From Candidatus Latescibacterota bacterium (GTDB lineage Bacteria > Latescibacterota > UBA2968 > GCA-2709665), in the NCBI GenBank assembly GCA_965219455.1, contig OZ244744.1:2491587-2555586 (forward strand): a stretch of DNA of 64,000 bases, given 5' to 3'. Shown one piece after another: positions 1,632 to 63,391 of this stretch. A program made the position numbers and the translations under genes. The number at the start of each line of letters is the position of its first letter. Position 1 is the stretch's first letter. Below the pieces are notes generated by a model. That model was not told the origin of the DNA, made no database searches, and saw only the letters and a list, made by a program, of their open reading frames with translations.

Positions 1632-4600
1632 ATGAAACGCCATTTGAAATCATCCACACTTGCGCTCGGTGTCGCCGGCCTGCTGTCCCTGGCGCTATTC
1701 ATCTTCCCGTGGTCGCCATCCACGCAGCCCGGCGGCTTTTCCCTCGCCCTGGACCTGGATGATGCCGATGGCAACCAGGCCGTTTCCTCGCTCGACCTCT
1801 TACCCCATCAGCCTGTTTCCCTACAGATTTTCGCGAGGGATATTCAGAATGCCACCGGCATATCCATGCGCTTTGGATACGATACGACTCAGTTAATCCA
1901 CGAGGGATTCGATCCCGGCGAGGTTCTGCCGAACGTCCATGCCATCGTACAACAGGATTCCACGTCCATCCGCATCGGGGTTTCGTCGTTGAGTGGATCG
2001 GCAACGGGAAACGCCGGCTGGGTTGGCACGGTACGTTTCCGCACCACCGGGTCGTTTTCAGACACGGAGATCTGGTTGGTGAGCGCGGAACTTTCCCTGG
2101 ATGGACAGTCCGAGGTAATATCACCCGCTCTCGGGGTTGCGTTGCAGGTGGCCGCGCCCGCTTCCCCTGACTTCGACGGCAACGGGCTTGTGGGGTTTTC
2201 CGACTTTGTGGCCTTTGCAGGCGCCTTCGGGGCACAGCGGGGCGATGGGAAGTACGTGGAGGCGTACGATCTGAACAACGACGGCACGATCGCCTTCAAC
2301 GATTTCGTGATCTTCGCCACGAGTTTTGGCGAAGCGGCCAACCGGGCGCCCGCGTTCACCGCCGCGTCTCCGGTCACGCGCTCTGTGGAAGAGAATACCT
2401 CGGCGGGCCAACCCATCGGCGATCCCCTCACCGCTACCGACGCCGATGACGACTCCCTCACGTACCACCTGCGCGGCGTGTATGCAGACCGTTTTTCCAT
2501 CGGCGCCAGTACGGGTCAGCTTGTCACAAAGGAGGGGATCGCCTACGACCACGAAGCCAGGGACGCGTATTCCGTCACCGTGCGGGTTACCGACGGGCAG
2601 GGGGGCCGCGCCACCATTGTCCTTGGCATCGCCGTCACCGACGTGGACGAACCCCCTGGCGGGCCGCCTGCAGGCGTGGTGGTCGCGCCGCGCGACACCG
2701 CATTGACCGTGACCTGGAGTGCGGCGCCCGACGAGGCGGGCAAGCCCCCGGTGAGCGGGTATGAAGTGGCGCATCGGCCGGCGGATAGCGAGGAATGGCT
2801 GGAGGGACGCTTCCTTGGCAGCCGCGCGGACACCAGCGTCACGCTGACCGGCCTGGCCAACGAACAACCGTATCAGGTACGCGTGCGCACGCTCAACGAC
2901 GAGGGCACAAGCGATTGGTCGGAACCCGTTGTCGGCGCGCCCACGGTGGGGCCGAGAGCGTTAGGCATCATCGGCGATCAGTCGCTGATCCTGGGCCGCG
3001 ACCTGCGGGTGAACATAGCCAGCCTGTTCACCCGGCCGGCGCTCGGGACGTTGACGTACGGCGCGGCGTCGTCCAATGAAGCCATCGCCGCGGTCACTGT
3101 GTCGGACTCGATGGCGACGGTGCACGCCGTGGCCCTGGGGCGCGCGACCATCACCGCCACCGCCAGCGACGTGTACGGCAACACCGCGCAGACGACCTTC
3201 CCCGTTGTCGTGACCACGCCGCCACCGCCACCACCACCGCCCGGACCCGTCGGGCCCATTGGGCCATTCCGGCCGCCACCACCACCCCCGCCACCACCGC
3301 CGCCTGCCAACAATCGCACGCCGTCCTTCGACGACGGGGCCAACACGTCGCGCACCGTGCCCGAGAATACCCCGGCGCGACAGCCCATTCAGCATCCGGT
3401 GCGCGCCACCGATCCGGACGGACACCGGCTGACGTACAATCTCACCGGACCGGACTCCGCCAGCTTTGCCGTGGACGTGGGCAGCGGGCAGTTGCGCACC
3501 CTGTCGGGCATCACGTATGACTTTGAGGATAACGACCGTTATTCGGTTGAACTGGAAGCCGACGACCCCTACGGCGGCAACGCCACCATCGGTGTTGCCA
3601 TCCACGTAGCAGACGTGGACGAACCGCCCGACGTCCCCGACAGGCCGCAGGTACAGCCGGCATCGTCCACCAGCCTGACGGTGACCTGGACAGCGCCGAC
3701 CAACACCGGCCCCTTCATATTCGATTACGACGTACAATATCGGACGGGCAGCGGCAACTTCGATCCATGGCCGCACGACAACACCGGCACGACCACGACG
3801 ATAACGAACCTGGAGGTGAACAAGCGCTACGAGGTACAGGTGCGGGCGCACAACGACGAAGGCGAGAGCCTCTGGTCCCCTTCGGGCTTCGGGACCACCA
3901 GCGCCAATCTGCCGCCGGTGTTCGACGAGGGAGGAAGCACCACGCGCAGCCTCGGCGAGAACACACCGTCGGATCGAAACATCGGCGGCCCCGTCACGGC
4001 AACCGATCCTGAGGGTAGCGAAGTGAGTTACCGCTTCGACAGCGGGGATACGGAGGGTTTTGCCATCGACCCAAACACCGGTCAACTGAAGACCAGGACG
4101 GGTGTCACCTACGATTTCGAAACAAAGGATCGTTATACGGTGAGGGTAGAGGCGCAGGACGAACAGGGAGGACGCTCAACCATCTCCGTGTCCATTGAAG
4201 TCACCGACGACGACAACGAACGGCCGGAGACGCCCGACAAGCCGACGGTCACCGCCTCCACGTTGAACAGCCTTTCCATTCGATGGACGGCGCCGGCAAA
4301 CGCCGGGCCCAACATCAACGACTACGACGTGCAGTACAGTGAGGACGGCGGCGCCTTCACAGGCTGGCCGCACACGGGTCCAGGCACGACCACCACCATC
4401 ACCGGGTTGAAGGCCAACACGCCCTACCAGGTTCAGGTGCTGGCGCGCAGCGACGAAGGCGAGAGCCTCTGGTCCGAGTCCGTTGACGTGAGAACTGTCG
4501 CCAACCGGGCGCCGACGTTCAACGAGGGCACGCGAACAACGCGCAGTCTTGACGAGAATACCACGGGCACACACGACGTCGGCAACCCGATAACCGCAAG

Positions 4601-7600
4601 GGATACCGACGGTGGGACATTGAGCTACGACCTTGAAGGCACGGATCAGGCCTCTTTCGATCTCGACGGCAACCAGCTTCAGACCCAATCGGGCGAGACC
4701 TACGACTTTGAGGAGAAGCCCGGCTACGACGTGACGGTTCGCGTCGAGGACGGACAGGGCGGCAGCAACACCATTGAGGTCACGATCAATCTGACGGACC
4801 AGCAGGAAAAACCCGGGATCCCGGACGCGCCCGGCGTCTCGGCGGCCTCGTCCACAAGCCTTACTGCGACCTGGGATGGGCCCGCAAACACCGGCCCCGA
4901 CGTCAACGACTACGACGTGCAGTACCGGGAGGGCGACAGCGGCGGCTTCAGCTCGTGGACGCACAACGGCGCGGACCGCACCGCAACCATCACGGATCGG
5001 ACGCCGGGCACGACCCACCAGGTGCAGGTACTCGCGCGCAGTCCCGAGGGCACAAGCGATTGGTCCGAATCGGGCACGGGAAGCACCAGCCCCAATCAGC
5101 TGCCGATATTCACCGATGGATCCGGCGCCACGCGTGAATTGGCCGAGAACACCACCGGCGTAAAGGACGTCGGCGATCCGGTGGGCGCCACGGACTCCGA
5201 GAAGACCACGCTGACCTACGCGCTTGAAGGCACCCACGCGGATACCTTTTCTATCGACGCGCGCAGCGGGCAGATCCGCACCAGGACGGGGAAGACCTAC
5301 GACTACGAGGCCACGCCACGATTTTCCGTGGACGTAAGGGCAACCGACGGCCACGGCGGCGACAACAGCCTCCCCGTGTCCATCGACCTTACCGATCTGA
5401 ACGAAGTTCCCGTATTTCCCGGCGAGGCGACGCTCGAGGCAGCGGAGAACCAGTCCTTCGCAGGAACGGTCACCGCCGAGGACCTGGATCGCGACGACGC
5501 CATCACGAATTACACCATTACCGGAGGCAGCGACCGGGACCTGCTGGAGATAAGTAGCGGAGGCGCGTTGACCTTCAAGGATGACCCCGACTTCGAGAGT
5601 CCCACCGACGCCGGAAGGAACAACGGCTACGTCGTCGAGGTCACCGTAACCGGTGGATCCGGAGGCCGCGCGCTGACCGCCGAGCAGCACTTTACCGTCA
5701 CCGTCACGGACGAAAACGAACCGCCCCGTTTCACCAGTGTGGATACATTCGCGGTCAAGGAAAATGAGCTGCTGGCAGGCCGATTGGCCGCACAGGACGT
5801 GGACAGAGACGACGGGATCACGGGCTACGAGGTCAATGCCGGGCGTGACGGAGATCGGTTCGAGATCGAGAACACCAGGGAGTTGCACTTCAAGGATAAA
5901 CCTGACTTCGAGCGGCCGGCGGATTCCGGAGGGAACAACGAATACATCGTTGTGGTCGAGGTGACGGGCGGCGCGGACACCCGGGAGCGAAATGCAACGC
6001 AGACCATAACCGTCACGGTGGAGGACGACGTCGAGCCGCCGGGCGAACCGGACCCGCCCACGGTGAGCGACGAGACCGAAAGCAGCCTGACGGTGAGTTG
6101 GGACGAACCGGACAACCCCGGTCCCGCCATTACGAACTATTTTGTGCAATACCGCGAGAGCGGCGCGTTCATCGACTCGCCGGACAGTGGACTGACCCGG
6201 ACGCGCACGATCACCGGCCTGCGCTCGGGCCGAACCTACCAGATTCAGGTGCAGGCGAAGAACGATGAAGGCAAGGGACCGTGGTCCGGACGGGCGAACG
6301 GAACGACGCTCACCGCGCCCACCGTTTCAAGCGCCGCGTTCACCTCCACACCGGCCTCAGGACAGAACGGCGCCTACAAGAAGGACGACGTCATCGACGT
6401 GACCGCGACTTTCAACGAAGCGGTGACCGTCACCGGCGCGCCCCAGATCGACCTGACGATCGGTTCCACCCTGCGCAAGGCCGACTATAAAAGCGGCTCG
6501 ACCACAACCCAGCTTCTCTTCCAATATGCGGTGGCGGACACCGACGAGGACAAGGATGGCGCGACCATCAACGAAAACGGCCTGAAGCTGAACAACGGCC
6601 GCATCTACATCCTCGTGAACAGCACCACCGTCAACGCCGACCTGGCGCACGCGGCGCGCGCCAACCGGTCCAGCCACAAGGTGGATGGCGTCCCACCGGG
6701 GCTCACCGACACGGAGGTGAAAAGCGACGAGTTGGTGCTTACTTTCGGCGAGAGCCTCGACCGCGATCCCAGGCCGGCAACGGGCGACTTTTCGGTGACG
6801 GCGGACGACTCGACACTTGGCGTCACGGCAGTTACGATGCGCACCAGCGACGTGGCGCTCACCATCGACCCGGCCGTAACCCCCGGACAGACGGTCTCGC
6901 TGGCCTACACGCCGGGGACCAACCCGATCCGGGACCAGGCGCAGAACCCCGCCATCGCGCTCACAAACCTGACGGTTAGAAACAACACTCAGGACCAGAC
7001 CTTGAACGTCTGCGTCCGCACCCGGCAGGTGCGCGACGCGATTACGGATGCGGCAGGGGTAAGCACGTGCGGCGAGGTAACCGGGGACCATTTGTCGGCA
7101 ATCACCCGGCTCTCGCTGAGCGAGAAGAACATCTCAACGCTGAAGGCCAATGACTTTGCAGGGCTGACGGCTCTGGAGACACTCTTTTTGAGAGACAACC
7201 AGATCAGCAGTCTGCCGCAGGACCTCTTCTCCGCGCTGTCAGCGCTGGAAACGCTTTCCCTCCGTGACAACGATTTCGCAAGCCTCAACGCGAGTCTCTT
7301 TTCGAGTCTGTCAGACCTGAGAATCCTTTTGCTGGACGGCAACCAACTCGACAGCCTGCATACAGATCTGTTCTCCGAACTCTCGGCGCTGGAAGCCCTC
7401 GATCTGAATGGCAACGGACTCAGCAGTCTGCCGCAGAGTGTCTTCTCCAACCTTTCGGCGCTGAGAATCCTCGATCTGGACGGTAATAAACTCAGCAGCC
7501 TTGATGCGAGTGTCTTCTCCAGCCTCTCGGCGCTGGAAGGCCTCGATCTGGACGGCAACGAGCTCAGCAGTCTGGATGCGAGTGTCTTCTCCAACCTTTC

Positions 7601-10600
7601 GGCGCTGAGAATCCTCGACCTGAACGGCAACAAACTCAGCAGCCTGAATACAAATATCTTCTCCAGCCTCTCGGCGCTGGAAAGCCTCGACCTGGACGGC
7701 AACGGACTCAGCAGCCTGGATGCGAGTACCTTCTCCAACCTCTCGGCGCTGCAAGCGCTCGACCTGAGCAAGAACCAACTCAGCAGCCTGCCTCAGAACA
7801 TCTTTTCCGGTCTGTCATCGCTGCAGGCGCTCTATCTCAACGAACAGGAATCCGGTCACGAACTCGGCAGCCTGGACGCTGATATATTCTCCGGCCTCAC
7901 CGCGTTGACAACACTCCGGCTGGAACAAAACGATATCGGCAGCCTGGACGCGGGACTCTTCACCGGGTTGACCGACATGGAAACGCTCAGGCTGGACAAT
8001 AACAGCCTCAGCAGCCTGCCAGATGGAATCTTCTCCGGGCTTACTTCGCTGACTACGCTCAACCTTGAGGGCAACACGGTCGACCCCCTTCCCATTAACG
8101 TGTCCCTGGAACGGGTCGCGTTGGGTCAATTCAGGGCCAAAGCGAACACCGGCGCGCCCTTTGACATGGTTTTGGCCCTGCTGGTGACCAACGGCTCCAT
8201 CGACGGCGGCGGGAGCAGCATCGAAATCCCCCAGGGTGACGCGCAAAGCAGCACATATACGGTAACCCGCACGACCGGCATGTCCGCGGCGGTTACAGTC
8301 GACATAGGCACGTTTCCCGACCTTCCCGGAACCGACAACGGCTACGCGCTGGTCAAGTCCGACGACCTGCCGCTCGAAGTCATCCCGGGGCTGCCGGATG
8401 TGAATATATACCCGACGGCGCTATCCGTGGCCGTGGGCGACAGCAATACCTACACAATGGCCCTTAACTCCATGCCGACGATGGATGTCACGGTCACGGT
8501 GGACGTGCCGTCGGGTTCCGACGTTTCGGTGAACCCGATGGAACGCATGTTTGCTGCCGACACCTATGACATGTCGCAGACCGTGACGGTGATCGCAGAT
8601 ACTGCCGCAGTGGCAGATGCCATGGTCACGTTGAGCCACATGGTCAGCGGTGGCGACTATCAGAACGTCTCGGCAGACGACGTCGCCGTGACGATCATCG
8701 GCGCTACCACTGGCAACCAGTTGCCAACCTTCGTCAGCGACAGCAGGTACGACGTCAAGGAAAACGAAACCTCGGTGGCCACGGTCGCAGCCACGGACGG
8801 GGACGCGAGAGACTACGTCACCGGCTACGAGATTACCGGCGGCGCCCAGCAGGCGCAGTTCGAAATCACCGGCGATGGTGTATTGACCTTCGTGACCGCC
8901 CCCGACTTTGAGCGTCCCGCCGTGAGCAGCAATTCGTATGTCGTCACGGTCACAGCCACGAGCGGAATCGAAGACAGAGAGCGGACCGCCCGACAGACGA
9001 TCGTTGTCTCCGTAACGGACGATGACGAACCGCCGGGGCAGCCGCCCGCGCCCATATTGGATCTCTCATACGCGTCTTACCGCACGATCGGGGTGAGCCC
9101 CGGCCGGAGACCGCCCGCGAACACCGGCCCGGAAATCACCGCCTGGGATATCCAGTATCGTATCAGGAATACCGGCGATTTCAAAATCCACGATCCGGAT
9201 CCGGAGCCGGACTGGACGCAACCGGACTGGGAAACGGCAATCACGCGTCTGGACAGGGGCGCGACCTACGAGGTACAGGTGCGTGCGAAGAACGACGAAG
9301 GGGAGAGCGAGTGGTCTCCGTCGGCCGAAGCGCCGATTCCCAATCAGTCCCCGGTCGCGGACGGCTCCTTCGACGACCTGACGCTTCCGGTGGGAGGCGC
9401 CGTTGAGATCGTGTCCGCGGACGACGTGTTCGACGATCCCGACGATATCAGGTTGACGTATACGGCGGCGTCCAGCAACACGGCTGCGGCGTCGGTGAAG
9501 GTGATCGATACCGAAGGCCTGGTCGATCCCCTGTCGTCGGGCGGTGCGACGATTACGGTTACGGCGACCGATCCGTGGGGCGCAACCGTGTCGGAGTCGT
9601 TCAGCGTTATTGTCCGGACACCGACCCTGTCCGCGCCCACCCTGAGCATCAGCGGCAACCTGTTCACACTTGAATTCACGAACGACTTCGCCGCCAACGA
9701 AACCAGGGCCTACGAGGTCAGAATCCGGCAGAAGGAGCCGATCGGCAATTGGGCCAGGGGGTGTTTCACGATAACCAACGACGAGAATACCGCCAGGTCC
9801 GTTACGGTAACGGTTCAGGACCTGGTTTCCGATTTCTTCGTGCCCGGCAACACCTACGAGGCGGACTACGGATACCTCGGGACGGCCTGCGGCGGCAGCC
9901 TGGCGGACGTACGCTCCGCGGCTGCCGAGGCGTCCGTTCCCGGAACCCCCGCCTTCAATATCGACCTCATCTACGCCGGCGGCACACCGGCCCGGAGGGT
10001 TCAGCTGGCTCTTGACAATGCCGTGGCGCGTTGGGAGCGGATCATCGCCCAGGACATCCCCAACCACCGTCTGTCGGCCAACCGCCGCAATTTGCTGGAG
10101 AGGCTTTTTCCGGGAACCACCTCCCCCGAGGTTGTGGATGACCTGGTGGTCTACGTGGAAGTCGTTGAAATCGACGGACAAAGCGGCACGCTCGGACAGG
10201 CGGGGCGTCTCGTTTGGCGCGTCCCGTCCTCCCTCCCGATCGCAGCCTTCATCGAACTCGACCGGGACGACCTGAGGACCATGTCTGACAATAAGTTGAC
10301 ACCTCTCGTTCTGCACGAGATAGGCCACACGTTGGGATTCGGTCTCGCACCGTGGACGGATCACAACCTTTTGAAGAACCCCTCTCTCGATCAGAACGAC
10401 GACCCCATTGTTCCCGCCCCGGATACGCATTTCTCGGGTGCGAACGCGATTGCCGCGTTCAACGCCGCGGGCGGGTCCGGCTATACGGGCGCGAAAGTGC
10501 CCGTGGAAAACACGTGGGGCGGATCGGGCAGCCAGGACAGCCACTGGCGGGAATCCGTAATGCAGAGCGAACTGATGACGCCCAGGGTGGGCGAAGCCGT

Positions 10601-10823
10601 TACGCATCCCCTCAGCGCCATCACGATCCAGTCCCTGGCCGACATCGGATACACCGTGGATGCCACGCAGGCCGACGCCTACACCCTGCCAACGACGTCC
10701 AAAATTGCGATGGGATCCGAGGAGTTGATTCTGCTCAACTGTGTTATCACGCACCCCGAGGCCGGACCCGATAGGCCCGAGCCCATCGTCCTGAATCTGC
10801 GCAGAATCCTGGAGAGCGAATGA
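1632..10823 (+). CDS. Giant secreted multidomain surface protein: signal peptide, cohesin-like, dockerin, cadherin/FN3 alternating modules, Big_2-like Ig domains, Pro-rich linker, LRR array, C-terminal leishmanolysin-like (M8-type) zinc metallopeptidase
   Basis: ORF 1539..10823. I prefer the ATG at 1632 (MKRHLKSSTLALGVAGLLSLALFIF signal-like). Dockerin pair: DFDGNGLVGFSDFVAFAGAFG...DLNNDGTIAFNDFVIFATSFG. Cadherin-like repeats end in VTDVDEPP / VADVDEPP / VTDENEPP. FN3 modules read SLTVTWTAP...YDVQYR...YEVQVRA.NDEGES.WS. There are about fourteen 24-aa LRRs. The peptidase part has VLHEIGHTLGFG (HEIGH at 10314-10328) plus SHWRESVMQSELMTP. Confidence 0.85.
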   Translation: MKRHLKSSTLALGVAGLLSLALFIFPWSPSTQPGGFSLALDLDDADGNQAVSSLDLLPHQPVSLQIFARDIQNATGISMRFGYDTTQLIHEGFDPGEVLPNVHAIVQQDSTSIRIGVSSLSGSATGNAGWVGTVRFRTTGSFSDTEIWLVSAELSLDGQSEVISPALGVALQVAAPASPDFDGNGLVGFSDFVAFAGAFGAQRGDGKYVEAYDLNNDGTIAFNDFVIFATSFGEAANRAPAFTAASPVTRSVEENTSAGQPIGDPLTATDADDDSLTYHLRGVYADRFSIGASTGQLVTKEGIAYDHEARDAYSVTVRVTDGQGGRATIVLGIAVTDVDEPPGGPPAGVVVAPRDTALTVTWSAAPDEAGKPPVSGYEVAHRPADSEEWLEGRFLGSRADTSVTLTGLANEQPYQVRVRTLNDEGTSDWSEPVVGAPTVGPRALGIIGDQSLILGRDLRVNIASLFTRPALGTLTYGAASSNEAIAAVTVSDSMATVHAVALGRATITATASDVYGNTAQTTFPVVVTTPPPPPPPPGPVGPIGPFRPPPPPPPPPPPANNRTPSFDDGANTSRTVPENTPARQPIQHPVRATDPDGHRLTYNLTGPDSASFAVDVGSGQLRTLSGITYDFEDNDRYSVELEADDPYGGNATIGVAIHVADVDEPPDVPDRPQVQPASSTSLTVTWTAPTNTGPFIFDYDVQYRTGSGNFDPWPHDNTGTTTTITNLEVNKRYEVQVRAHNDEGESLWSPSGFGTTSANLPPVFDEGGSTTRSLGENTPSDRNIGGPVTATDPEGSEVSYRFDSGDTEGFAIDPNTGQLKTRTGVTYDFETKDRYTVRVEAQDEQGGRSTISVSIEVTDDDNERPETPDKPTVTASTLNSLSIRWTAPANAGPNINDYDVQYSEDGGAFTGWPHTGPGTTTTITGLKANTPYQVQVLARSDEGESLWSESVDVRTVANRAPTFNEGTRTTRSLDENTTGTHDVGNPITARDTDGGTLSYDLEGTDQASFDLDGNQLQTQSGETYDFEEKPGYDVTVRVEDGQGGSNTIEVTINLTDQQEKPGIPDAPGVSAASSTSLTATWDGPANTGPDVNDYDVQYREGDSGGFSSWTHNGADRTATITDRTPGTTHQVQVLARSPEGTSDWSESGTGSTSPNQLPIFTDGSGATRELAENTTGVKDVGDPVGATDSEKTTLTYALEGTHADTFSIDARSGQIRTRTGKTYDYEATPRFSVDVRATDGHGGDNSLPVSIDLTDLNEVPVFPGEATLEAAENQSFAGTVTAEDLDRDDAITNYTITGGSDRDLLEISSGGALTFKDDPDFESPTDAGRNNGYVVEVTVTGGSGGRALTAEQHFTVTVTDENEPPRFTSVDTFAVKENELLAGRLAAQDVDRDDGITGYEVNAGRDGDRFEIENTRELHFKDKPDFERPADSGGNNEYIVVVEVTGGADTRERNATQTITVTVEDDVEPPGEPDPPTVSDETESSLTVSWDEPDNPGPAITNYFVQYRESGAFIDSPDSGLTRTRTITGLRSGRTYQIQVQAKNDEGKGPWSGRANGTTLTAPTVSSAAFTSTPASGQNGAYKKDDVIDVTATFNEAVTVTGAPQIDLTIGSTLRKADYKSGSTTTQLLFQYAVADTDEDKDGATINENGLKLNNGRIYILVNSTTVNADLAHAARANRSSHKVDGVPPGLTDTEVKSDELVLTFGESLDRDPRPATGDFSVTADDSTLGVTAVTMRTSDVALTIDPAVTPGQTVSLAYTPGTNPIRDQAQNPAIALTNLTVRNNTQDQTLNVCVRTRQVRDAITDAAGVSTCGEVTGDHLSAITRLSLSEKNISTLKANDFAGLTALETLFLRDNQISSLPQDLFSALSALETLSLRDNDFASLNASLFSSLSDLRILLLDGNQLDSLHTDLFSELSALEALDLNGNGLSSLPQSVFSNLSALRILDLDGNKLSSLDASVFSSLSALEGLDLDGNELSSLDASVFSNLSALRILDLNGNKLSSLNTNIFSSLSALESLDLDGNGLSSLDASTFSNLSALQALDLSKNQLSSLPQNIFSGLSSLQALYLNEQESGHELGSLDADIFSGLTALTTLRLEQNDIGSLDAGLFTGLTDMETLRLDNNSLSSLPDGIFSGLTSLTTLNLEGNTVDPLPINVSLERVALGQFRAKANTGAPFDMVLALLVTNGSIDGGGSSIEIPQGDAQSSTYTVTRTTGMSAAVTVDIGTFPDLPGTDNGYALVKSDDLPLEVIPGLPDVNIYPTALSVAVGDSNTYTMALNSMPTMDVTVTVDVPSGSDVSVNPMERMFAADTYDMSQTVTVIADTAAVADAMVTLSHMVSGGDYQNVSADDVAVTIIGATTGNQLPTFVSDSRYDVKENETSVATVAATDGDARDYVTGYEITGGAQQAQFEITGDGVLTFVTAPDFERPAVSSNSYVVTVTATSGIEDRERTARQTIVVSVTDDDEPPGQPPAPILDLSYASYRTIGVSPGRRPPANTGPEITAWDIQYRIRNTGDFKIHDPDPEPDWTQPDWETAITRLDRGATYEVQVRAKNDEGESEWSPSAEAPIPNQSPVADGSFDDLTLPVGGAVEIVSADDVFDDPDDIRLTYTAASSNTAAASVKVIDTEGLVDPLSSGGATITVTATDPWGATVSESFSVIVRTPTLSAPTLSISGNLFTLEFTNDFAANETRAYEVRIRQKEPIGNWARGCFTITNDENTARSVTVTVQDLVSDFFVPGNTYEADYGYLGTACGGSLADVRSAAAEASVPGTPAFNIDLIYAGGTPARRVQLALDNAVARWERIIAQDIPNHRLSANRRNLLERLFPGTTSPEVVDDLVVYVEVVEIDGQSGTLGQAGRLVWRVPSSLPIAAFIELDRDDLRTMSDNKLTPLVLHEIGHTLGFGLAPWTDHNLLKNPSLDQNDDPIVPAPDTHFSGANAIAAFNAAGGSGYTGAKVPVENTWGGSGSQDSHWRESVMQSELMTPRVGEAVTHPLSAITIQSLADIGYTVDATQADAYTLPTTSKIAMGSEELILLNCVITHPEAGPDRPEPIVLNLRRILESE
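3217..3307 (+). repeat. Proline-rich low-complexity linker inside the giant gene (PPPPPPPPGPVGPIGPFRPPPPPPPPPPPA)
   Basis: Read directly from the translation and from the ccg/cca runs in the DNA. Confidence 0.9.
7105..8095 (+). repeat. Tandem 72-nt (24-codon) leucine-rich-repeat array; some units are near-identical at the DNA level with a 144-nt period
   Basis: Consensus LSSLDASVFSNLSALRILDLDGNK. As an example, 7421-7492 and 7565-7636 differ at only a handful of positions. Confidence 0.9.
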
Positions 10824-11455
10824 ATAGGCTGAATATGAGCGTCGTAGTACCAATGGCCTTCCTGGCGATGTATACCTTATGCTCGCCTTCCGAGCGGCCG
10901 CGGAAAGAAGCACATCCCGGACCGCCGCCGCAAACACGTGTCTGCGAACCCCCGTCCGGTCGCCTCAATGTCCGGGCGACATTGGCCGGCCGGGAAGGGC
11001 ACTATGACCTTGCGCTTGTGCAGGTGGTAAACGGCGTCGACACGCGACGCGCACGGGGCGCGCTCATCCTGCGCAGGCAGCCGCCGGGGCTGGATTCGCT
11101 GGGAGAGGCCGCCACCCCTCTGTACGGATATATTGACATCGACCTGCGTGCGGTGGGCGCGCACCGGGTCGGTGATCCCGGCAGCACGGATCCGGAGGCC
11201 CCTGGCGTGCTCGTTCTTGAAAGCCTCCACGACGGCAAGCGCCGCATTCTGGTCCGCCTCGGCGCGGACGCCAATCGGCGGGATTCAATGCTCTTCGACG
11301 GGGCCTTTACCGTGCTAGAAGTACATGCGATCTACAGAGGCGGTTTCGCCGGGAGTTGGCGCAGCGGCCTGCGATCATTGCGCACCGGCGGCTACTTCTG
11401 CGCATGGCGCATGGATAAAAAAACCGGGACGCGTGGCACGCCCCGTCCTGACTGA
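10820..11455 (+). CDS. Hypothetical protein, possible lipoprotein, translationally coupled to the giant gene
   Basis: ATGA overlap: ATG 10820, upstream TGA 10821-10823. The N-terminus MNRLNMSVVVPMAFLAMYTLCSP is hydrophobic with a Cys. I recognised no family. Confidence 0.5.
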   Translation: MNRLNMSVVVPMAFLAMYTLCSPSERPRKEAHPGPPPQTRVCEPPSGRLNVRATLAGREGHYDLALVQVVNGVDTRRARGALILRRQPPGLDSLGEAATPLYGYIDIDLRAVGAHRVGDPGSTDPEAPGVLVLESLHDGKRRILVRLGADANRRDSMLFDGAFTVLEVHAIYRGGFAGSWRSGLRSLRTGGYFCAWRMDKKTGTRGTPRPD

Positions 11456-11530: not shown

Positions 11531-12825
11531 TTATACGCCAAGGATCCCTCTTGCGGCCTGTCGTGCGTCATCGAGTGTTTCGACAATGCGATGCTTCGGA
11601 ACATGCTGCAGGATGCCGAGTGTATTTAGCGTTCTCGCCGTCAGACCGGACAGTCCCATCACGATACATTCGGTCTGTTCGCTTTCGGCGAGATCCATGA
11701 GTTGCCCTATTACCATGGCCGCGCTGTCATCGAGATAGGTGGCTTCGGAGAAATCGATGATGACAACCTCGTGATCCTTAATGTCCGCGCCGATCACGCC
11801 GACCAGCTTGTGGGAGGATGCGACGGTGAGGCTTCCCCTGAGCGCTACAAGTCCCACGCGAGCCGAGTACGGACTGAGTGCGGCCACATCCAGGTCCTCC
11901 TCCTCGGAAAAGAACGTCCGGTCCAGCAGCGGCACGGAGACCACGCTGTCGAGTTCCAGGCGTTCCAGTTGCCGTGCGTGCACCATTCCCGCGGCAATCA
12001 GGCCGATCGCTACGGCGGTCACGAGATCGACAAACACCGTAAGACCCAGGGTAATCATCATCACCAGAAGGTGTTCCCGGCGCAGCCGGTGAACGCGCGT
12101 GAGAAGACGCCAGTCGACGATTTCCCAGCCGACCTTCATCAGAATACCGGCAAGCCGATCGGTATGTGGCCGATTACCGGGACGTCGCTCAGCCACAGTA
12201 CGCCGAGCAACGTCCCGGCGATCAGTGCCAGGAGGGGGCCCGGCAGGTATCTGCTCCAACTGCGCGGCCAGATCGCACCGACAGCGAGAGCAACGGCAGC
12301 GATAGCCAGCGCGTTGTAATTGACATTGTCAACCGCATCGGACACCGCGCGGATCGTTCCGACGACACCGCCCGGCGCCGGGGCTGTCCCCAGGAACGGA
12401 AGAATGTGAATCACCATGATGATGATGCCGATCCCGGACATGAATCCGGAGATGACCACATGGGGCGTATAGGCCACGAAGCGGCCGATCCTCGACATGC
12501 CCAGCAACACCTGCAGTAAACCGGCCATAACAACCACGGTGAGCGCTTCGGTCAGGTTGGTGGTGTAGCTGGAGACAATGACCACGAGGGCGACGGTCAT
12601 CGGCGCAGTGGGGCCCGATATCTGGGTCCGCGTGCCGCCGAACACAGCAGCGAAAAGGCCCACCGCGATCGCGCCGTACATCCCGGCTGCCGCGCCCATG
12701 CCCGACGCGACCCCCAGGGCCAGCGCGACCGGCAGCGCCACCACGGTTGCCGTGATGCCTCCAAAGACGTCGCCACGGAGCGCGCGGTTATCATAATTCG
12801 ATGGGATCATATCCTTAAAAAACAA
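11531..12825 (-). pseudogene. SulP-family anion transporter with C-terminal STAS domain, disrupted by an out-of-frame internal deletion
   Basis: ORF 12139..12825 covers the SulP N-terminal TMs (GDVFGGITATVVALPVALALGVASG...IGHIPIGLPVF*). ORF 11531..12259 covers the last TM plus STAS (ILMKVGWEIVDWRLL...VIIDFSEATYLDDSAAMVIGQLMDL). The two frames overlap at 12139-12259, and roughly 150-170 aa of the expected core TMs are missing. Confidence 0.7.
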
Positions 12826-13067: not shown

Positions 13068-13712
13068 ATGCTGAGATTCGCCGAAGAACTCATGCTCCTC
13101 CTTCTCGACGACGAAAACGGGAGATTCGCCCGCGTGCCGGAGCAGTCCCTGCGCTATGCGCTTGCCGGCGGGGTGCTGATGGAGAACCGTATCGACACCG
13201 ATCCGAAGCAGCTTGTCCTCGTGGATTCGACACCCGTTCAGGACAACCTTCTCGATCCGACGCTTGCCGACATATCGCGGGCAACCGAAACGCACGACGC
13301 GCGTTTCTGGGTGGAACGCACCGCCATTCGCAGCGCCGCGGGCATTCGCGAAGGATCGCTCGACCGGCTGGTAGAGCGAGGCGTCCTTGAACGTCGGGAC
13401 GACCGGTTCATGTGGGTTTTCCGGACGAGGCGCTATCCCGTCATCGACGACCAGGCTGAACGGGAGGTCAAGCTCAGGATTATGGAAATCCTGTTCAGCG
13501 ATGAGATACCCGACCCGCGCGACGTGGTGATCATCAGTCTGGCGCACGCCTGTAACCTGTTCAACCAGATCCTGTCTTCCCGCGAACTCGCGCGCGTTGC
13601 CCCGCGAATTAACCAGGTGCGGCGGCTCGACCTGATCGGCCAGGCTACGTTCCGGGCAATCACGGAAATCGAACTTTCGCTCGCCCTGGCCGTCCAGATG
13701 AGGCCTTACTAG
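13068..13712 (+). CDS. GPP34/GOLPH3-family protein
   Basis: MLRFAEELMLLLLDDENGRF...LRYALAGGVLMEN matches my memory of the N-terminal pattern of bacterial GPP34 proteins. The length of 214 aa fits. Confidence 0.65.
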   Translation: MLRFAEELMLLLLDDENGRFARVPEQSLRYALAGGVLMENRIDTDPKQLVLVDSTPVQDNLLDPTLADISRATETHDARFWVERTAIRSAAGIREGSLDRLVERGVLERRDDRFMWVFRTRRYPVIDDQAEREVKLRIMEILFSDEIPDPRDVVIISLAHACNLFNQILSSRELARVAPRINQVRRLDLIGQATFRAITEIELSLALAVQMRPY

Positions 13713-15674: not shown

Positions 15675-15704
15675 TTGACATTTCTGAACGACACGACCCA
15701 TTAT
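15675..15704 (+). promoter_or_regulatory. Candidate sigma70-type promoter for the carbonic anhydrase gene
   Basis: TTGACA at 15675-15680, an 18-nt spacer, then CATTAT at 15699-15704, about 65 nt upstream of the ATG at 15771. Confidence 0.35.
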
Positions 15705-15770
15705 ACCTACCATTACCTGTCCATTGAAATGAATTTTCCTGCGGCGCAGACTCCTAGAGAACGCAAAAAC

Positions 15771-16553
15771 ATGACAGTTATCAAACCTACCATCTTGATG
15801 TGTATAGTGTGTATTTTGATGATTGCATGTTCAGAGCCGGAGGATTCGCAATCCCGATTGGATAAGGTTGCGTGGGGGTACAATGCCGAGAACGGACCGG
15901 ACCTCTGGGGCCGGCTGAGCCGGAAATATGCGCTTTGCGCCGAAGGGTCGGGCCAATCCCCCATTGACCTCCGGAACCCGACGCCGGCAAGACTTCCTGC
16001 CATCGTCTTCAACTACCGGCCAACCGCCCTGAATATCCGCAATAACGGCCACACCATAGAAATGGCATTCACCGGGGAGAACCGGATCGAGGTTGCGGGT
16101 AACAAATACAACCTGCTACAGTGCCATTTCCATGCGCCGTCCGAACATACGATGGACGGCAAGTCATTTGACATGGAGATGCACCTCGTTCACCGAAACG
16201 AGGAAGGCGCGTTGCGCGTAATTGGTGTGTTGATCGAGCGGGGAAGCCACCACATCGCATTCAATCTTGTATCGGAGCGTTTACCGCACGTGCCGGGCGA
16301 AATGAAACACATCGAAGGTGTCTCCGTTAACCCCGGCGATTGGCTTCCGCGGGACGGGCGCGCCTATCGATATGAGGGTTCCCTGACGACCCCACCCTGC
16401 TCTGAGGGGGTCAGGTGGTTCGTGCTGGCATCGCCCGTTGAAATCTCAGAGGCGCAGATTGCCGCATTCGAAGCAATTGTTCACAAAAATAACCGGCCGG
16501 TCCAGGCGCCGAACGGCCGCGAGATTCTTGTTGCTAACGGAGAGGAAAAATAA
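15771..16553 (+). CDS. Alpha-class carbonic anhydrase, lipoprotein-type signal
   Basis: SGQSPIDL, QCHFHAPSEHTMDG, EMHLVH, YRYEGSLTTPPCSEGVRWFV. The ATG at 15771 gives MTVIKPTILMCIVCILMIACSEPE. Confidence 0.92.
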   Translation: MTVIKPTILMCIVCILMIACSEPEDSQSRLDKVAWGYNAENGPDLWGRLSRKYALCAEGSGQSPIDLRNPTPARLPAIVFNYRPTALNIRNNGHTIEMAFTGENRIEVAGNKYNLLQCHFHAPSEHTMDGKSFDMEMHLVHRNEEGALRVIGVLIERGSHHIAFNLVSERLPHVPGEMKHIEGVSVNPGDWLPRDGRAYRYEGSLTTPPCSEGVRWFVLASPVEISEAQIAAFEAIVHKNNRPVQAPNGREILVANGEEK

Positions 16554-36148: not shown

Positions 36149-36150
36149 TG

Positions 36151-36185
36151 ATCAGCTAAAAGCCATCAGCCGTCAGCAGTCAGCT
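36151..36185. repeat. F2 AGCTGA-rich repeat, inverted relative to the 27135 copy
   Basis: atcagctaaaagccatcagccgtcagcagtcagct. Confidence 0.7.
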
Positions 36186-36282
36186 TGAACCGGTTAGAGA
36201 TACGGACTTGCGATGTCCCTTCACAATATCCGCGCTATTATGTGGGCGCCTCTTGGCTGCAAATTCAACGGCTGCGCGGAAC

Positions 36283-36340
36283 TCTCCCCCCGGCCCCAAG
36301 GCCCTCACCCCCCAACCCCCTCTCCCAGCGGGAGAGGGGG
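36283..36340. repeat. Hairpin repeat family F1, copy C (inverted, with an internal insertion)
   Basis: CTCTCCCCCCGGCCCC...CCCCCTCTCC-CAGCG-GGAGAGGGGG. Confidence 0.75.
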
Positions 36341-36436
36341 AGCAAAAGCAGGAAAAGCGGCCTCGCACGGAGACACGAAGACACAAAGGGCAAGACAGCG
36401 ATGAGCGATCTGCAGACAACAGGCCTGAGTAACCCA

Positions 36437-36778: not shown

Positions 36779-36989
36779 TGAGGGAAGCGAAGGCAGCGTA
36801 TATGGTATGCGCCTTATGTGGGACCCTTTTATGGCTTCGCTCTGAAACCGGCCGCGTCACAAGCAATCCGGATTCGCAAGCCAGAACGCACGACATGACG
36901 TAGCGAAGACTTCCTTAATCACCAAAGATTCCTATCTCGTTTTTCTTGACACATGTCGCGGCGAATTTGACAAGATATGAGGTATTGAA

Positions 36990-62146: not shown

Positions 62147-63391
62147 ATGCGGTGGTTTCTGATGGTTCTGTTTCTTGCAACCGATGCATTGGCGAATCAG
62201 GCGGTACTTACGACAACGGATTACAGCAGCGGTGGCCTTTCAAGCCTGGATCTTGGCACAAATACGGCAACCAACGATCACCTCACGATCCATTCGGATG
62301 CGGTTGTGCGCACGTATCGCGACAAGGTGTATATTCTCAATCGCCTGCCGCAGGATAATGTGATCGTGTTGGATCGTAGCGATCTAATGACGCCAATTAC
62401 GCAGTATTCGACGGGGAATGGTTCGAACCCGCACGATATCGCCTTTGTCAGCGAGGCAAAGGCGTATATCTCACTGTTCGAGCGGTCACAACTGCTCATT
62501 GTCAATCCCGTCACGGGCGACTCGCTCGGCTCGGTCGATCTATCCACATTCGCAGATGCCGATGGCCTGCCGGAAGTCTCTCAGCTGGCCTTATACGGGA
62601 GTCATTTATTCGCCGCGTGTCAACGGTTGGATAGGGAAAATGGATGGGCGCCGACCGAATTTTCTTCCATTGCCGTTGTTGACGTGACGACCGATCTATT
62701 GGTGGACGCGGATTCAGATACAGAGGGTGTACAGGGCATTGTGATGGGGGGCAAGAATCCCTACAGCGCCTTCCAGCGAGGAAGCAGGTGGGTTTTGAGT
62801 ACTTATAATATGTACACAGATTTAACTGACGGCGGAATTGAGGTGATCGATCTGGAAAATCTGGTGAGCGAAGGGATTAAAATTGATGAAGTAGCAGCAG
62901 GCGGCAACATATGGGCGCTGGCGATGGTTTCTGACGTCGAAGGGTATGTCGTGGTTACCGACGAGAATTTCGTCAATATCGTCAACCGGTTCAATCTGAC
63001 GACTCGGTCCGTATTAAAGAGACTGGACGGTCTTTCCGGTGGGGAAGTTCCAAGCCTGGGTATATTCGGCGAGCGACTATATTTATCGGACCGAGGCAGT
63101 TTCAGCGATCCGGCTTCCGCCGGCGTGAAGGTCTACGACGTAAATACGGAGGAACTTCTGGCCGGTCCGATCTCCACCGGTTTGCCGCCGTCAAGCATTG
63201 CGTTTGTAGGCAGCGCGGCGGATTTCAATGGCGATTGCGTGGTGGATTTCAGCGATTTCGTGGTATTTGCTTCCGGCTTTGGCAGGACAGCCGGCGACGG
63301 CGAGTTTGATGCCAGATTCGATTTGAACGGCAATGGAGAGGTTGATTTTCCCGATTTTCTGATCTTTGCTTCGGAATTCGGAGGTGGATGA
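62147..63391 (+). CDS. Secreted beta-propeller (YncE-like) protein with a C-terminal dockerin module
   Basis: Signal MRWFLMVLFLATDALA. Repeated ...SNPHDIAF...LIVNPVTGD... blades. The C-terminus is DFNGDCVVDFSDFVVFASGFG...DLNGNGEVDFPDFLIFASEFG. Confidence 0.65.
   Translation: MRWFLMVLFLATDALANQAVLTTTDYSSGGLSSLDLGTNTATNDHLTIHSDAVVRTYRDKVYILNRLPQDNVIVLDRSDLMTPITQYSTGNGSNPHDIAFVSEAKAYISLFERSQLLIVNPVTGDSLGSVDLSTFADADGLPEVSQLALYGSHLFAACQRLDRENGWAPTEFSSIAVVDVTTDLLVDADSDTEGVQGIVMGGKNPYSAFQRGSRWVLSTYNMYTDLTDGGIEVIDLENLVSEGIKIDEVAAGGNIWALAMVSDVEGYVVVTDENFVNIVNRFNLTTRSVLKRLDGLSGGEVPSLGIFGERLYLSDRGSFSDPASAGVKVYDVNTEELLAGPISTGLPPSSIAFVGSAADFNGDCVVDFSDFVVFASGFGRTAGDGEFDARFDLNGNGEVDFPDFLIFASEFGGG

What the first reader, a model, noticed from the sequence alone, without database searches (positions are those of the whole stretch)
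1632..10823. A roughly 3,060-aa chimeric adhesin-protease combining cohesin, dockerin, cadherin/FN3, LRR and a leishmanolysin-like peptidase
One polypeptide carries both a cohesin-like module (about aa 66-205 of the ORF-track translation) and a dockerin pair (2169-2335). It also has at least eight cadherin-like repeats, interleaved in part with at least six FN3 modules, plus Big_2-like Ig domains, about fourteen LRRs, and a C-terminal HExxHxxGF peptidase with the SHW...ELM motif seen in M8 leishmanolysins. Cohesin and dockerin on the same chain would allow self-polymerisation or scaffold assembly at the cell surface. The LRR, cadherin and M8 content is eukaryote-like and suggests interaction with, and processing of, host surface proteins. 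I know of no characterised protein with this architecture.
Basis: partly seen in the sequence, partly recalled or inferred. Interest (0 to 1): 0.7.

Follow-up and report, generated by a model that had tools for sequence, protein, structure and literature searches.

The report
Giant cohesin-dockerin adhesin-protease of Latescibacterota
A real 3,063-residue secreted protein of an uncultured Latescibacterota bacterium joins a cellulosome-type docking pair (cohesin plus dockerin) to animal-like adhesion repeats and a leishmanolysin-type zinc protease, and it belongs to a large unannotated family that may assemble host-interaction proteins on the cell surface the way cellulosomes assemble enzymes.

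Summary
Window 1632-10823 (+) is one uninterrupted ORF of 3,063 aa. Its order is: leader, cohesin-fold module, dockerin, 8 cadherin-like repeats, 6 FN3 modules, 2 Big_2-like domains, an SWM/Ig region, about 14 LRRs, and a C-terminal M8 (leishmanolysin-type) metzincin with all zinc ligands and the Met-turn.

It is not an assembly chimera. Colinear full-length orthologues (60-88% identical) lie on several chromosome-level Latescibacterota MAGs, with several paralogues per genome.

The cohesin call is below threshold in Pfam. It is still supported: the top 50 PDB matches of the predicted fold are all cohesins, and profile-found relatives pass Pfam's Cohesin cut-off. Some of those relatives carry 2-7 tandem copies, one with a terminal dockerin (scaffoldin-like).

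Other proteins here and in related loci also carry dockerins: WD40 proteins, a 414-aa protein in this window, a peroxiredoxin-like protein, and a small barrel protein.

New here: a 211-aa calycin-like barrel protein overlaps the giant gene's stop codon. It sits within about 50 nt downstream of the M8-type giant gene in all 12 loci where it occurs, and in six of them it carries its own dockerin.

Best reading: a surface adhesin-protease that acts as a monovalent adaptor in a non-cellulosomal cohesin-dockerin network of eukaryote-like proteins. Binding, proteolysis, localisation and host are all inferred.

The parts
1632..10823 (+). Giant gene, 3,063 aa plus stop
   Evidence: Uninterrupted ORF. 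An identical protein, P0001, lies on an 808 kb contig. Colinear orthologues are 60-88% identical.
1632..1712 (+). N-terminal leader (aa 1-27): basic n-region and hydrophobic stretch, followed by the conserved PWSPSTQP motif
   Evidence: Read from the sequence. The motif is conserved across the family and in dockerin-bearing small proteins. Cleavage was not tested.
1722..2159 (+). Cohesin-fold module (aa 31-176)
   Evidence: Pfam Cohesin is the only hit but is below threshold: 14.7-16 bits against a cut-off of 24.1. The AF2 model has a core pLDDT of 85-92. The top 50 Foldseek PDB hits are all cohesins, E 2.6e-6 to 1.6e-3. Profile-found relatives reach 31-76 bits on Pfam Cohesin.
2160..2339 (+). 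Dockerin (aa 177-236), with two duplicated EF-hand-like segments: DFDGNGLVGFSD and DLNNDGTIAFND
   Evidence: Pfam Dockerin_1 scores 20-21 bits against a cut-off of 22.9. A family profile hits solved dockerins 2y3n_B, 4wi0_B, 4u3s_B and 5k39_B at E 6.6e-7 to 2e-5. Motif scan.
2340..6305 (+). Stalk of cadherin-FN3 units. Order: Cad1-FN3-Big_2-like-polyPro linker (aa 528-560), then Cad2-FN3, Cad3-FN3, Cad4-FN3, then Cad5-Cad6-Cad7-FN3.
   Evidence: Pfam, self-HMMs, and cadherin Ca-binding-type motifs xEN, DxD and YDxE.
6309..7001 (+). Ig-like / SWM_repeat region (aa 1560-1790)
   Evidence: Pfam SWM_repeat 45-50 bits. TIGR02059 scores 36 bits, below its cut-off.
7014..8102 (+). LRR domain, 13-14 repeats of 24 aa (aa 1795-2157)
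   Evidence: Pfam LRR_8 207 bits. Self-HMM count. It is among the least conserved segments between close orthologues.
8103..8714 (+). About 200 aa of unassigned, probably beta-rich, domains (aa 2158-2361)
   Evidence: Only a weak fn3_6 hit, 17 bits. No NCBIfam hit.
8715..9941 (+). Cad8, FN3-6, Big_2-like 2 and an unassigned domain (aa 2362-2770)
   Evidence: Cadherin 33.5 bits and Big_2 23.3 bits. FN3 self-HMM 56 bits.
9942..10820 (+). M8 (leishmanolysin-type) metzincin domain. HExxH at nt 10314, third His at nt 10542, Met-turn Met at nt 10575.
   Evidence: Pfam Peptidase_M8 42-47 bits against a cut-off of 21. Leishmanolysin 1lml is the only hit below E 0.1 in phmmer against PDB sequences, with the motifs aligned. 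The motifs are conserved in 35-38 of 38 homologues, depending on the position.
10820..11455 (+). Partner gene, 211 aa, whose start overlaps the giant gene's stop (ATGA). Its product has a leader with Cys and an eight-stranded calycin-like barrel.
   Evidence: Conserved within about 50 nt downstream of M8-type giant genes in 12 loci, six of them with an N-terminal dockerin. 227 homologues, with no Pfam or NCBIfam hit. AF2 pLDDT 78.6. Foldseek hits are weak, E >= 2.7e-3, and mostly lipocalin- or avidin-type barrels.
62147..63391 (+). Second dockerin-bearing protein in the window, 414 aa, with the dockerin at nt 63215-63382
   Evidence: Pfam Dockerin_1 23.1 bits, above the cut-off of 22.9. phmmer with the giant protein's dockerin gives E 1e-11.

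Best explanation
The gene encodes a Sec-exported, extracellular or surface-displayed giant adhesin-protease of a Candidatus Latescibacterota bacterium, probably a marine-sponge symbiont.

Shown:
- The protein has a long, probably Ca-stiffened stalk of cadherin and FN3 modules. This carries an LRR ligand-binding module and a C-terminal M8 zinc metalloprotease with intact catalytic residues.
- Its N-terminus carries one cohesin-fold module directly followed by one dockerin.

Inferred:
- The cohesin-dockerin head works like a monovalent adaptor scaffoldin. The dockerin plugs the protein into a cohesin on another molecule, either a poly-cohesin scaffoldin of the same module type or another family member. 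Its own cohesin receives one dockerin-tagged protein: another giant, a WD40 or propeller protein, or the small barrel protein.
- The result would be a cellulosome-like but non-carbohydrate assembly of eukaryote-like adhesion proteins and proteases. This assembly would bind extracellular matrix or cell-surface proteins of the host or of neighbouring cells and cleave them.
- The co-transcribed 211-aa barrel protein is a dedicated partner of the M8 domain. It may be a regulator, inhibitor, chaperone or anchor; which of these is unknown.
For: The gene is real and conserved.
- The ORF is intact.
- Colinear orthologues lie on several independent chromosome-level Latescibacterota MAGs, and all 25 segments are conserved.

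Domain identities.

Cohesin.
- The top 50 PDB fold matches of the predicted model are all cohesins.
- The only two PDB sequence hits of a cohesin-only profile are cohesins.
- Relatives found with that profile pass Pfam Cohesin. They include proteins with 7, 5, 4, 3 and 2 tandem copies. P0298 has 7 cohesins plus a C-terminal dockerin.

Dockerin: profile match to solved dockerins and canonical duplicated Ca loops.

A network exists.
- The same leader-cohesin-dockerin head sits on dozens of giant paralogues, with or without M8.
- Dockerins also occur on WD40 proteins, a 414-aa protein in this window, an AhpC/thioredoxin-like protein and the small barrel protein.

M8.
- The score is above Pfam's cut-off.
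- The zinc ligands and Met-turn align to 1LML and are conserved in 35-38 of 38 homologues, depending on the position.

Partner gene.
- Its start overlaps the giant gene's stop.
- It was found only immediately downstream of M8-type giants, in 12 of 12 occurrences.

Host context.
- Sponge-associated Latescibacterota are reported as rich in cadherin, FN3 and LRR proteins (PMC8163846, PMC12993501).
- The window also encodes GPP34, reported as a sponge-symbiosis-associated family (PMC11706023).
Against: - No binding, proteolysis, export or expression data exist.
- Direct Pfam scores for the cohesin (14.7-16 against 24.1) and the dockerin (20-21 against 22.9) are below threshold.
- Fold-match TM-scores are moderate, 0.5-0.65.
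- The M8 match covers only profile positions 165-334 of 529.
- No outer-membrane secretion or sorting signal was recognised.
- The taxon of the poly-cohesin proteins is unknown, and none was seen in the fetched Latescibacterota loci.
- The window's copy of the small partner lacks a dockerin.
- The barrel protein gave no fold match to known metalloprotease inhibitors.
- The sponge origin of this MAG was not verified.
Confidence: 0.6

Rival explanations
1. The N-terminal beta-sandwich has a cohesin fold but is not a dockerin receptor. It acts as a structural support for the adjacent dockerin, like the X-module of type II/III X-dockerins. On this view the giant protein is only a dockerin-tagged cargo that docks onto separate poly-cohesin scaffoldins.
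For: - The cohesin and dockerin are always directly adjacent, with a linker of about 5 aa, in every family member.
- The Pfam Cohesin score is below threshold.
- Foldseek also aligns the model with the CipA Coh9-X-DocII chains 4fl4 and 3kcp.
- Separate poly-cohesin proteins exist that could be the real receptors.
Against: - The same module type forms tandem arrays without adjacent dockerins in P0298-P0301. There it behaves as an independent receptor-type module.
- Its sequence is as conserved as the dockerin, 98% in the closest orthologue.
- No X-module (Ig-like, about 100 aa) fold hit ranked above the cohesins.
Confidence: 0.15
2. The protein serves nutrition or biofilm formation rather than host interaction. 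It would tether the cell to detrital or microbial polymers and digest proteins for uptake, as part of the saprophytic, cellulosome-affiliated lifestyle proposed for free-living Latescibacteria.
For: - Latescibacteria are described as saprophytic, with cellulosome-affiliated extracellular enzymes (statement in PMC7081726, citing Farag 2017).
- Bacterial cadherin and FN3 domains are also linked to carbohydrate binding and biofilms (PMC8163846).
- The window carries glycosidase-like genes and a TonB-dependent receptor.
Against: - No carbohydrate-active or carbohydrate-binding module is present in this protein or in the dockerin-tagged proteins seen. The cargo consists of WD40, LRR, propeller, barrel and redoxin modules.
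- The closest relatives come from MAG series and named symbionts typical of sponge microbiomes.
- GPP34 and a eukaryotic-type carbonic anhydrase lie nearby.
Confidence: 0.2
3. The ORF is an assembly concatenation of smaller repeat genes, or a decaying pseudogene.
For: - It contains internal repeats.
- Many database relatives are frameshifted fragments, and the L002 orthologue is split in two ORFs.
Against: - The window copy is uninterrupted.
- The identical protein is seen on two contigs.
- Full-length colinear orthologues of 3,047-3,114 aa occur in independent assemblies, including several complete chromosomes.
- The catalytic motifs are conserved.
Confidence: 0.01

Closest known systems
Monovalent adaptor scaffoldins of cellulosomes (for example Ruminococcus flavefaciens ScaC: one cohesin plus one dockerin) and scaffoldins in general (C. 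thermocellum CipA)
   Same: Both have a cohesin and a dockerin on one secreted polypeptide. The dockerin has two duplicated Ca-loop segments. Poly-cohesin relatives of the same module type exist.
   Different: Here the cohesin-dockerin unit is an N-terminal head on a 3,000-aa adhesin-protease. The cargo seen is eukaryote-like repeat proteins and a metzincin, not carbohydrate-active enzymes. The organism belongs to Latescibacterota, not Firmicutes. No binding data exist. The ScaC comparison rests on my own knowledge of the literature.
Non-cellulosomal cohesin-dockerin modules (Archaeoglobus fulgidus cohesin 2xdh; Clostridium perfringens cohesin-like modules 2jh2, 2vo8 and 2w1n on host-glycan hydrolases; Ruminococcus bromii amylosome Sca5 7urp and 7uvg)
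   Same: These are among the best structural matches to the predicted module. They show that cohesin-dockerin pairs are used outside cellulose degradation, including against host substrates.
   Different: Those systems organise glycoside hydrolases or are of unknown function. None is attached to cadherin, FN3 or LRR stalks or to an M8 protease.
Leishmanolysin / GP63 (MEROPS family M8; PDB 1LML)
   Same: It shares HExxHxxG, a distal third His about 70 residues downstream, and a Met-turn 11 residues after that His. The sequence alignment has E 2.7e-4, and the Pfam M8 score is above the cut-off.
   Different: Only the catalytic core matches (profile positions 165-334 of 529). The domain is about 290 aa, against about 480 aa for GP63. 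It is bacterial and sits at the C-terminus of a giant multidomain protein. There is no GPI anchor.
Eukaryotic-like repeat and attachment proteins of sponge symbionts (cadherin, FN3, LRR; Robbins et al. 2021, PMC8163846; PMC12993501)
   Same: The phylum and the domain content are the same. These domains are reported as enriched in sponge-associated Latescibacterota and are proposed to mediate attachment.
   Different: Those reports are domain censuses. The architecture, the cohesin-dockerin head, the M8 domain and the partner gene are not described in any paper found.
Giant T1SS adhesins (LapA, SiiE and RTX adhesins)
   Same: They are multi-thousand-residue rods of Ig, cadherin or Calx-like Ca-binding repeats with a ligand-binding region near one end.
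   Different: No RTX repeats or T1SS C-terminal signal were detected. This protein has an N-terminal Sec-type leader instead.

Membership tests
Cohesin (Pfam PF00963) | Beta-sandwich (jelly-roll) fold of about 140 aa | tested here: met
   The AF2 model of aa 28-240 has a core pLDDT of 85-92. The top 50 Foldseek PDB hits are all cohesins, E 2.6e-6 to 1.6e-3, with target TM-scores of 0.5-0.65 for the single-module chains. This is a predicted structure, not a solved one.
Cohesin (Pfam PF00963) | Sequence match at or above the family's gathering score | tested here: inconclusive
   The direct score is 14.7-16 bits against a cut-off of 24.1. Cohesin is the only Pfam family hit for that segment scanned alone. 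Relatives retrieved with the module's own profile score 31-76 bits. The only two PDB sequence hits of the profile are cohesins, at E 0.5-0.75.
Cohesin (Pfam PF00963) | Ca-dependent binding of a dockerin | not testable with these tools
   Needs recombinant proteins or a multimer model.
Dockerin type I (Pfam PF00404) | Two duplicated segments of about 22 residues, each an EF-hand-like Ca loop (D-x-D/N-x-D/N-G ... D at position 12) followed by a helix | tested here: met
   The segments are DFDGNGLVGFSD-FVAFAGAFG and DLNNDGTIAFND-FVIFATSFG. Two helices are predicted.
Dockerin type I (Pfam PF00404) | Significant sequence match to known dockerins | tested here: met
   The family profile matches solved dockerins 2y3n_B, 4wi0_B, 4u3s_B and 5k39_B at E 6.6e-7 to 2.2e-5. 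The single-sequence Pfam score is 20-21 bits, just under the 22.9 cut-off.
Peptidase M8 (leishmanolysin) | HExxHxxG with a distal third His ligand and a Met-turn | tested here: met
   H2895, E2896, H2899, H2971 and M2982 align to the 1LML motifs. They are conserved in 35-38 of 38 homologues, depending on the position.
Peptidase M8 (leishmanolysin) | Pfam score above the gathering cut-off | tested here: met
   42.3-46.9 bits against 21.
Peptidase M8 (leishmanolysin) | Full three-domain GP63 architecture | tested here: not met
   Only profile positions 165-334 of 529 are matched. The domain is about 290 aa, so it is a minimal M8-like core.
Peptidase M8 (leishmanolysin) | Zn-dependent endopeptidase activity | not testable with these tools
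   Biochemistry is required.
Cadherin repeat (PF00028) | Repeats of about 105 aa with Ca-binding motifs (xEN, DxD, LDRE-like, DxNDxxP-like) | tested here: met
   Five repeats are strong (164 bits in total) and three are weaker, at 33-34 bits when scanned alone. Motifs are listed.
Cellulosome (sensu stricto) | Dockerin-tagged carbohydrate-active enzymes assembled on a cohesin scaffoldin carrying a CBM | tested here: not met
   No CAZyme or CBM is present in this protein or in the dockerin-tagged proteins examined. Only a limited sample of loci was seen.
Cellulosome-like cohesin-dockerin assembly system (broad sense) | The same cohesin type occurs in tandem arrays on scaffoldin-like proteins, and the matching dockerin type occurs on many secreted proteins | tested here: met
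   P0298 (7 cohesins plus a dockerin), P0299 (5), P0300 (4), P0301 (3) and P0303 (2 plus a dockerin). Dockerins occur on WD40, propeller, barrel and redoxin proteins. The taxon of the poly-cohesin proteins was not established.
RTX / T1SS giant adhesins | C-terminal RTX nonapeptide repeats and a T1SS signal | tested here: not met
   No such Pfam or NCBIfam hit. An N-terminal leader is present.

The most novel reading that the evidence does not exclude
Sponge-associated Latescibacterota, and some co-resident phyla, possess a cellulosome-like cohesin-dockerin system whose cargo is eukaryote-like interaction modules and proteases rather than carbohydrate enzymes. In this system:
- Giant cadherin/FN3/LRR-M8 proteins act as chain-forming monovalent adaptors.
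- Poly-cohesin proteins act as hubs.
- WD40, propeller, redoxin and calycin-barrel proteins are plugged in through dockerins.

This would explain how such symbionts display eukaryote-like proteins to the host without classical effector secretion systems. It would also give the widespread 'orphan' non-cellulosomal cohesin-dockerin modules a concrete function.
Probability: 0.35. Interest if true: 0.8.

Novelty: new variant of a known kind. Interest (0 to 1): 0.6.

Why it matters
Two open questions meet in this protein.

First, non-cellulosomal cohesin and dockerin modules are scattered through bacteria and archaea, and for most of them no function has been assigned.

Second, sponge symbionts are rich in eukaryote-like cadherin, FN3, LRR and WD40 proteins. 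How these are displayed, and what they do, is unknown. Robbins et al. (PMC8163846) note that few lineages encode classical secretion systems for them.

A family in which one cohesin-dockerin cassette heads giant adhesin-proteases, alongside poly-cohesin hubs and many dockerin-tagged repeat proteins, gives a concrete hypothesis. It can be tested by expressing small modules (cohesin, dockerins, M8, barrel protein). It also supplies new orthogonal cohesin-dockerin pairs and a compact bacterial M8 protease with a candidate dedicated partner.

Tried and rejected
- Direct Pfam scanning of the N-terminus gave only sub-threshold cohesin and dockerin scores. It was therefore not used alone.
- A cohesin-only profile against PDB sequences gave only non-significant E-values, 0.5-0.75. 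The two hits were both cohesins.
- NCBIfam gave only partial LRR-effector and sub-threshold hits. No sorting-signal or T9SS/PEP-CTERM/LPXTG model matched.
- The small downstream protein had no Pfam or NCBIfam hit.
- The small protein's fold search did not retrieve serralysin-type metalloprotease inhibitors. It returned only weak matches, mostly lipocalin- or avidin-type barrels, so the inhibitor idea stays speculative.
- Rfam found nothing in the finding's region.
- Promoter and terminator scans around the two-gene unit were uninformative.
- Literature searches for cohesin or dockerin in sponge symbionts, Latescibacteria or Poribacteria, and for leishmanolysin in sponge symbionts, found nothing relevant.
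- Youssef 2015 does not mention cohesin or dockerin. Farag 2017 is not held.
- Accession-level proof that these MAGs come from sponges was not found.
- Assembly chimera and pseudogene were considered and rejected.
- An RTX-type adhesin was considered and rejected.
- A second structure prediction for the M8 domain was given up in favour of the unknown partner protein, because the sequence evidence for M8 was already sufficient.
Full report
OBSERVATION. The window has an uninterrupted ORF on the + strand. Its longest form starts at the GTG at 1539 and ends at 10823. The first ATG is at 1632 and starts a typical leader, MKRHLKSSTLALGVAGLLSLALFIF, giving a 3,063-aa protein. The 'cohesin aa 66-205' counts from the GTG and equals aa 35-174 from the ATG. 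The 'dockerin pair 2169-2335' is in nucleotides and equals aa 180-235.

Pfam on the whole protein gives the following:
- fn3: 257 bits, six stretches.
- LRR_8: 207 bits.
- Cadherin: 164 bits, five stretches.
- SWM_repeat: 45 bits.
- Peptidase_M8: 42.3 bits against a cut-off of 21.

Segment scans and HMMs built from the protein's own repeats add three divergent cadherin-like repeats. The totals are eight cadherin-like repeats, six FN3 modules and 13-14 LRRs of 24 residues. There are also two borderline Big_2-like domains and a 33-residue proline-rich linker. The cadherin repeats carry the usual Ca-binding-type motifs (xEN, DxD, YDxE, acidic D-x-x-E-P ends).

IS IT A REAL GENE? Yes.
- An identical protein lies on an 808-kb contig.
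- Full-length colinear homologues of 3,047-3,114 aa are 60-88% identical. They occur in independent assemblies, several of them on 5-6 Mb contigs.
- A scan of one genome per species found the gene family in 22 of 25 loci from Candidatus Latescibacterota MAGs. Many of these are complete chromosomes, often with several paralogues per genome.
- A per-segment comparison shows all 25 segments conserved in order. In the closest orthologue the cohesin and dockerin are among the best conserved (98%). Cadherin 8 (64%), the first Big_2-like domain (75%) and the LRR domain (79%) are the least conserved.

The 'assembly concatenation' refutation therefore fails. Many short database relatives are frameshifted fragments of such genes, and the L002 orthologue is split. 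The window copy is intact.

COHESIN AND DOCKERIN. Single-sequence Pfam scores are just below threshold: Dockerin_1 at 20-21 bits against 22.9, and Cohesin at 14.7-16 bits against 24.1. Cohesin is the only family hit when that segment is scanned alone.

Dockerin. A profile of the family's N-termini matches solved dockerin modules best: 2y3n_B at E 6.6e-7, then 4wi0_B, 4u3s_B and 5k39_B. The sequence shows two duplicated EF-hand-like loops with following helices.

Cohesin.
- An AlphaFold2 model of aa 28-240 has a mean pLDDT of 74.8 and a core of 85-92. It gives a beta-sandwich followed by two helices.
- All of its 50 best PDB matches are cohesins, at E 2.6e-6 to 1.6e-3. They include non-cellulosomal cohesins from Archaeoglobus fulgidus, Clostridium perfringens and the Ruminococcus bromii amylosome.
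- A cohesin-only profile finds just two PDB sequences, both cohesins, at non-significant E-values.
- The same profile, searched against 1.84 billion representative proteins, finds 505 relatives.
- Several of these pass Pfam's Cohesin cut-off at 31-76 bits.
- Some contain the module in tandem: P0298 has seven copies and a C-terminal dockerin; P0299 has five copies; P0300 has four copies plus LRRs; P0301 has three copies; and P0303 has two copies plus a dockerin and LRRs.

I therefore accept the module as a divergent cohesin, and the head of the protein as one cohesin plus one dockerin.

PROTEASE. The C-terminal 290 residues match Pfam Peptidase_M8 above the cut-off. In a sequence search of all PDB chains, the only hit below E 0.1 is leishmanolysin 1LML, at E 2.7e-4. 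HEIGHTLGF aligns to HEMAHALGF, and GSQDSHWRESVMQSELMTP aligns to GSAGSHIKMRNAQDELMAP. The HExxHxxG motif, the distal third histidine and the Met-turn are therefore all present. They are conserved in 35-38 of 38 homologous domains, depending on the position. Only the catalytic core of the 529-position M8 profile is matched, so this is a minimal M8-like metzincin and not a full GP63.

FAMILY AND NEIGHBOURHOOD. Among the relatives, the leader-cohesin-dockerin head and the M8 tail combine freely.
- Head plus M8: P0001-P0004, P0006-P0012, P0047, P0072, and P0093 from a Gemmatimonadota MAG, annotated only as 'fibronectin type III domain-containing protein'.
- Head without M8: for example P0022-P0042.
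- M8 without the head: for example P0015-P0021. Some of these may be truncated gene calls.

The window has a second dockerin at the C-terminus of a 414-aa secreted protein at 62147-63391. Related loci carry WD40 proteins with C-terminal dockerins and an AhpC/thioredoxin-like protein with a dockerin.

PARTNER GENE.
- It has 227 homologues, no name and no Pfam or NCBIfam match.
- In the fetched loci it occurs 12 times. Each time it lies within about 50 nt of the 3' end of an M8-type giant gene, and never next to giants that lack M8.
- In six of those loci its ORF begins with the same PWS-type leader plus a dockerin. In the window's clade it instead has a leader with a cysteine, and most homologues have a canonical lipobox there.
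- Its predicted structure has pLDDT 78.6 and a core above 90. It is an eight-stranded barrel whose weak PDB matches are mostly calycin-type barrels: lipocalins, avidins and CpeS.
- From general knowledge, the serralysin inhibitors also belong to the calycin superfamily. None was retrieved, so 'inhibitor' is only one candidate role.

MECHANISM. Several things are shown: the domain composition, the intact catalytic motifs, conservation, the existence of the same cohesin type in tandem arrays, the many dockerin-tagged proteins, and the tight linkage of the partner gene.

The rest is inferred.
- The protein is exported through its Sec-type leader.
- The cadherin/FN3 stalk forms a long Ca-stiffened rod.
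- The LRR domain and the more variable distal repeats bind protein ligands, and the M8 domain cleaves them.
- The N-terminal cohesin-dockerin unit works as a monovalent adaptor. Its dockerin plugs into a cohesin elsewhere, and its cohesin accepts one dockerin-bearing protein.

This gives chains or hub-and-spoke assemblies of eukaryote-like proteins. My confidence in this overall reading is about 0.6.

Three rivals were considered.
- The cohesin-fold module is only a structural support for the dockerin (0.15).
- The system serves detritus or biofilm attachment and protein scavenging rather than host interaction (0.2).
- The ORF is an artefact or pseudogene (0.01).

COMPARISON WITH WHAT IS KNOWN.
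- Cohesin plus dockerin on one chain is the normal layout of scaffoldins and monovalent adaptor scaffoldins, so that feature alone is not new.
- Non-cellulosomal cohesin-dockerin pairs are known, and they are the best structural matches.
- Enrichment of cadherin, FN3 and LRR proteins in sponge-associated Latescibacterota is published as domain censuses (PMC8163846, PMC12993501).
- 'Cellulosome-affiliated enzymes' are attributed to Latescibacteria by PMC7081726, citing Farag 2017.
- In the held literature I found no description of this architecture, of a cohesin-dockerin head on adhesin-type proteins, of bacterial M8 domains in this context, or of the partner gene.
- It fails the strict definition of a cellulosome, because no CAZyme or CBM cargo was seen. 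It also fails the definition of RTX adhesins.

HOST CONTEXT. This is circumstantial.
- One named relative is from the Ianthella basta symbiont Arenicellales IbO2 (the host assignment is my own knowledge).
- Chromosome-level Latescibacterota bins are reported from sponge genome projects.
- The window itself encodes GPP34, reported as a sponge-symbiosis-associated family, and a eukaryotic-type carbonic anhydrase (PMC11706023).

VERDICT. I rate it a new variant of a known kind, namely cohesin-dockerin assembly applied to eukaryote-like adhesin-proteases. Interest is 0.6.

Noticed in passing
window 10820-11455 (+): A 211-aa ORF overlaps the giant gene's stop codon (ATGA). It belongs to an unnamed family of 227 proteins with no Pfam or NCBIfam match. 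Its predicted fold is an eight-stranded calycin-like barrel with two conserved Cys. It is found only directly downstream of M8-type giant genes, in 12 of 12 occurrences, and carries an N-terminal dockerin in six related loci.
   Followed up: yes
window 62147-63391 (+): A 414-aa secreted protein with a C-terminal dockerin (Pfam 23.1 bits). The N-terminal region of about 350 aa has no family match and may be propeller-like.
   Followed up: partly
window 13068-13712 (+) and 15675-16553 (+): A GPP34 (Golgi phosphoprotein 3) homologue at 140.8 bits, and a eukaryotic-type carbonic anhydrase. GPP34 has been reported as a protein family associated with sponge symbiosis (PMC11706023).
   Followed up: partly
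window 1695-1730; family alignments A1 and A2: The leader peptides of the giant proteins and of the dockerin-bearing small proteins share a conserved motif just after the hydrophobic stretch (..FxxPWS(P/L)(S/F)xQ..). This suggests a dedicated processing or sorting signal.
   Followed up: no
L028 6001-9303 (P0298); L030 3001-6612 (P0300); L029 3001-5604 (P0303): Scaffoldin-like proteins carry 7, 4 and 2 tandem cohesins of the same type as the window's module. P0298 and P0303 also have a dockerin, and P0300 and P0303 have LRRs. They are flanked by large WD40 and LRR proteins. Their taxon was not established.
   Followed up: partly
L011 325-3210, 10652-13603, 13953-16139, 16162-18339; L022 12659-16162; L029 2181-2873: WD40-repeat proteins and an AhpC/thioredoxin-like protein carry C-terminal or internal dockerins. 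In these genomes dockerins tag eukaryote-like repeat proteins and redox proteins, not carbohydrate enzymes.
   Followed up: partly
window 58194-58364 (+) and 59824-62019 (+): A cobalamin riboswitch (114 bits) lies upstream of a TonB-dependent receptor gene.
   Followed up: no
window 11531-12825 (-): The sulfate permease and STAS coding region appears as two overlapping ORFs in different frames in the window. The public record calls a single 548-aa product there. This may be a frameshift or an assembly difference.
   Followed up: no
window 36000-40000: A stretch of low G+C, 0.485 against about 0.60 elsewhere in the window. It may be foreign DNA.
   Followed up: no
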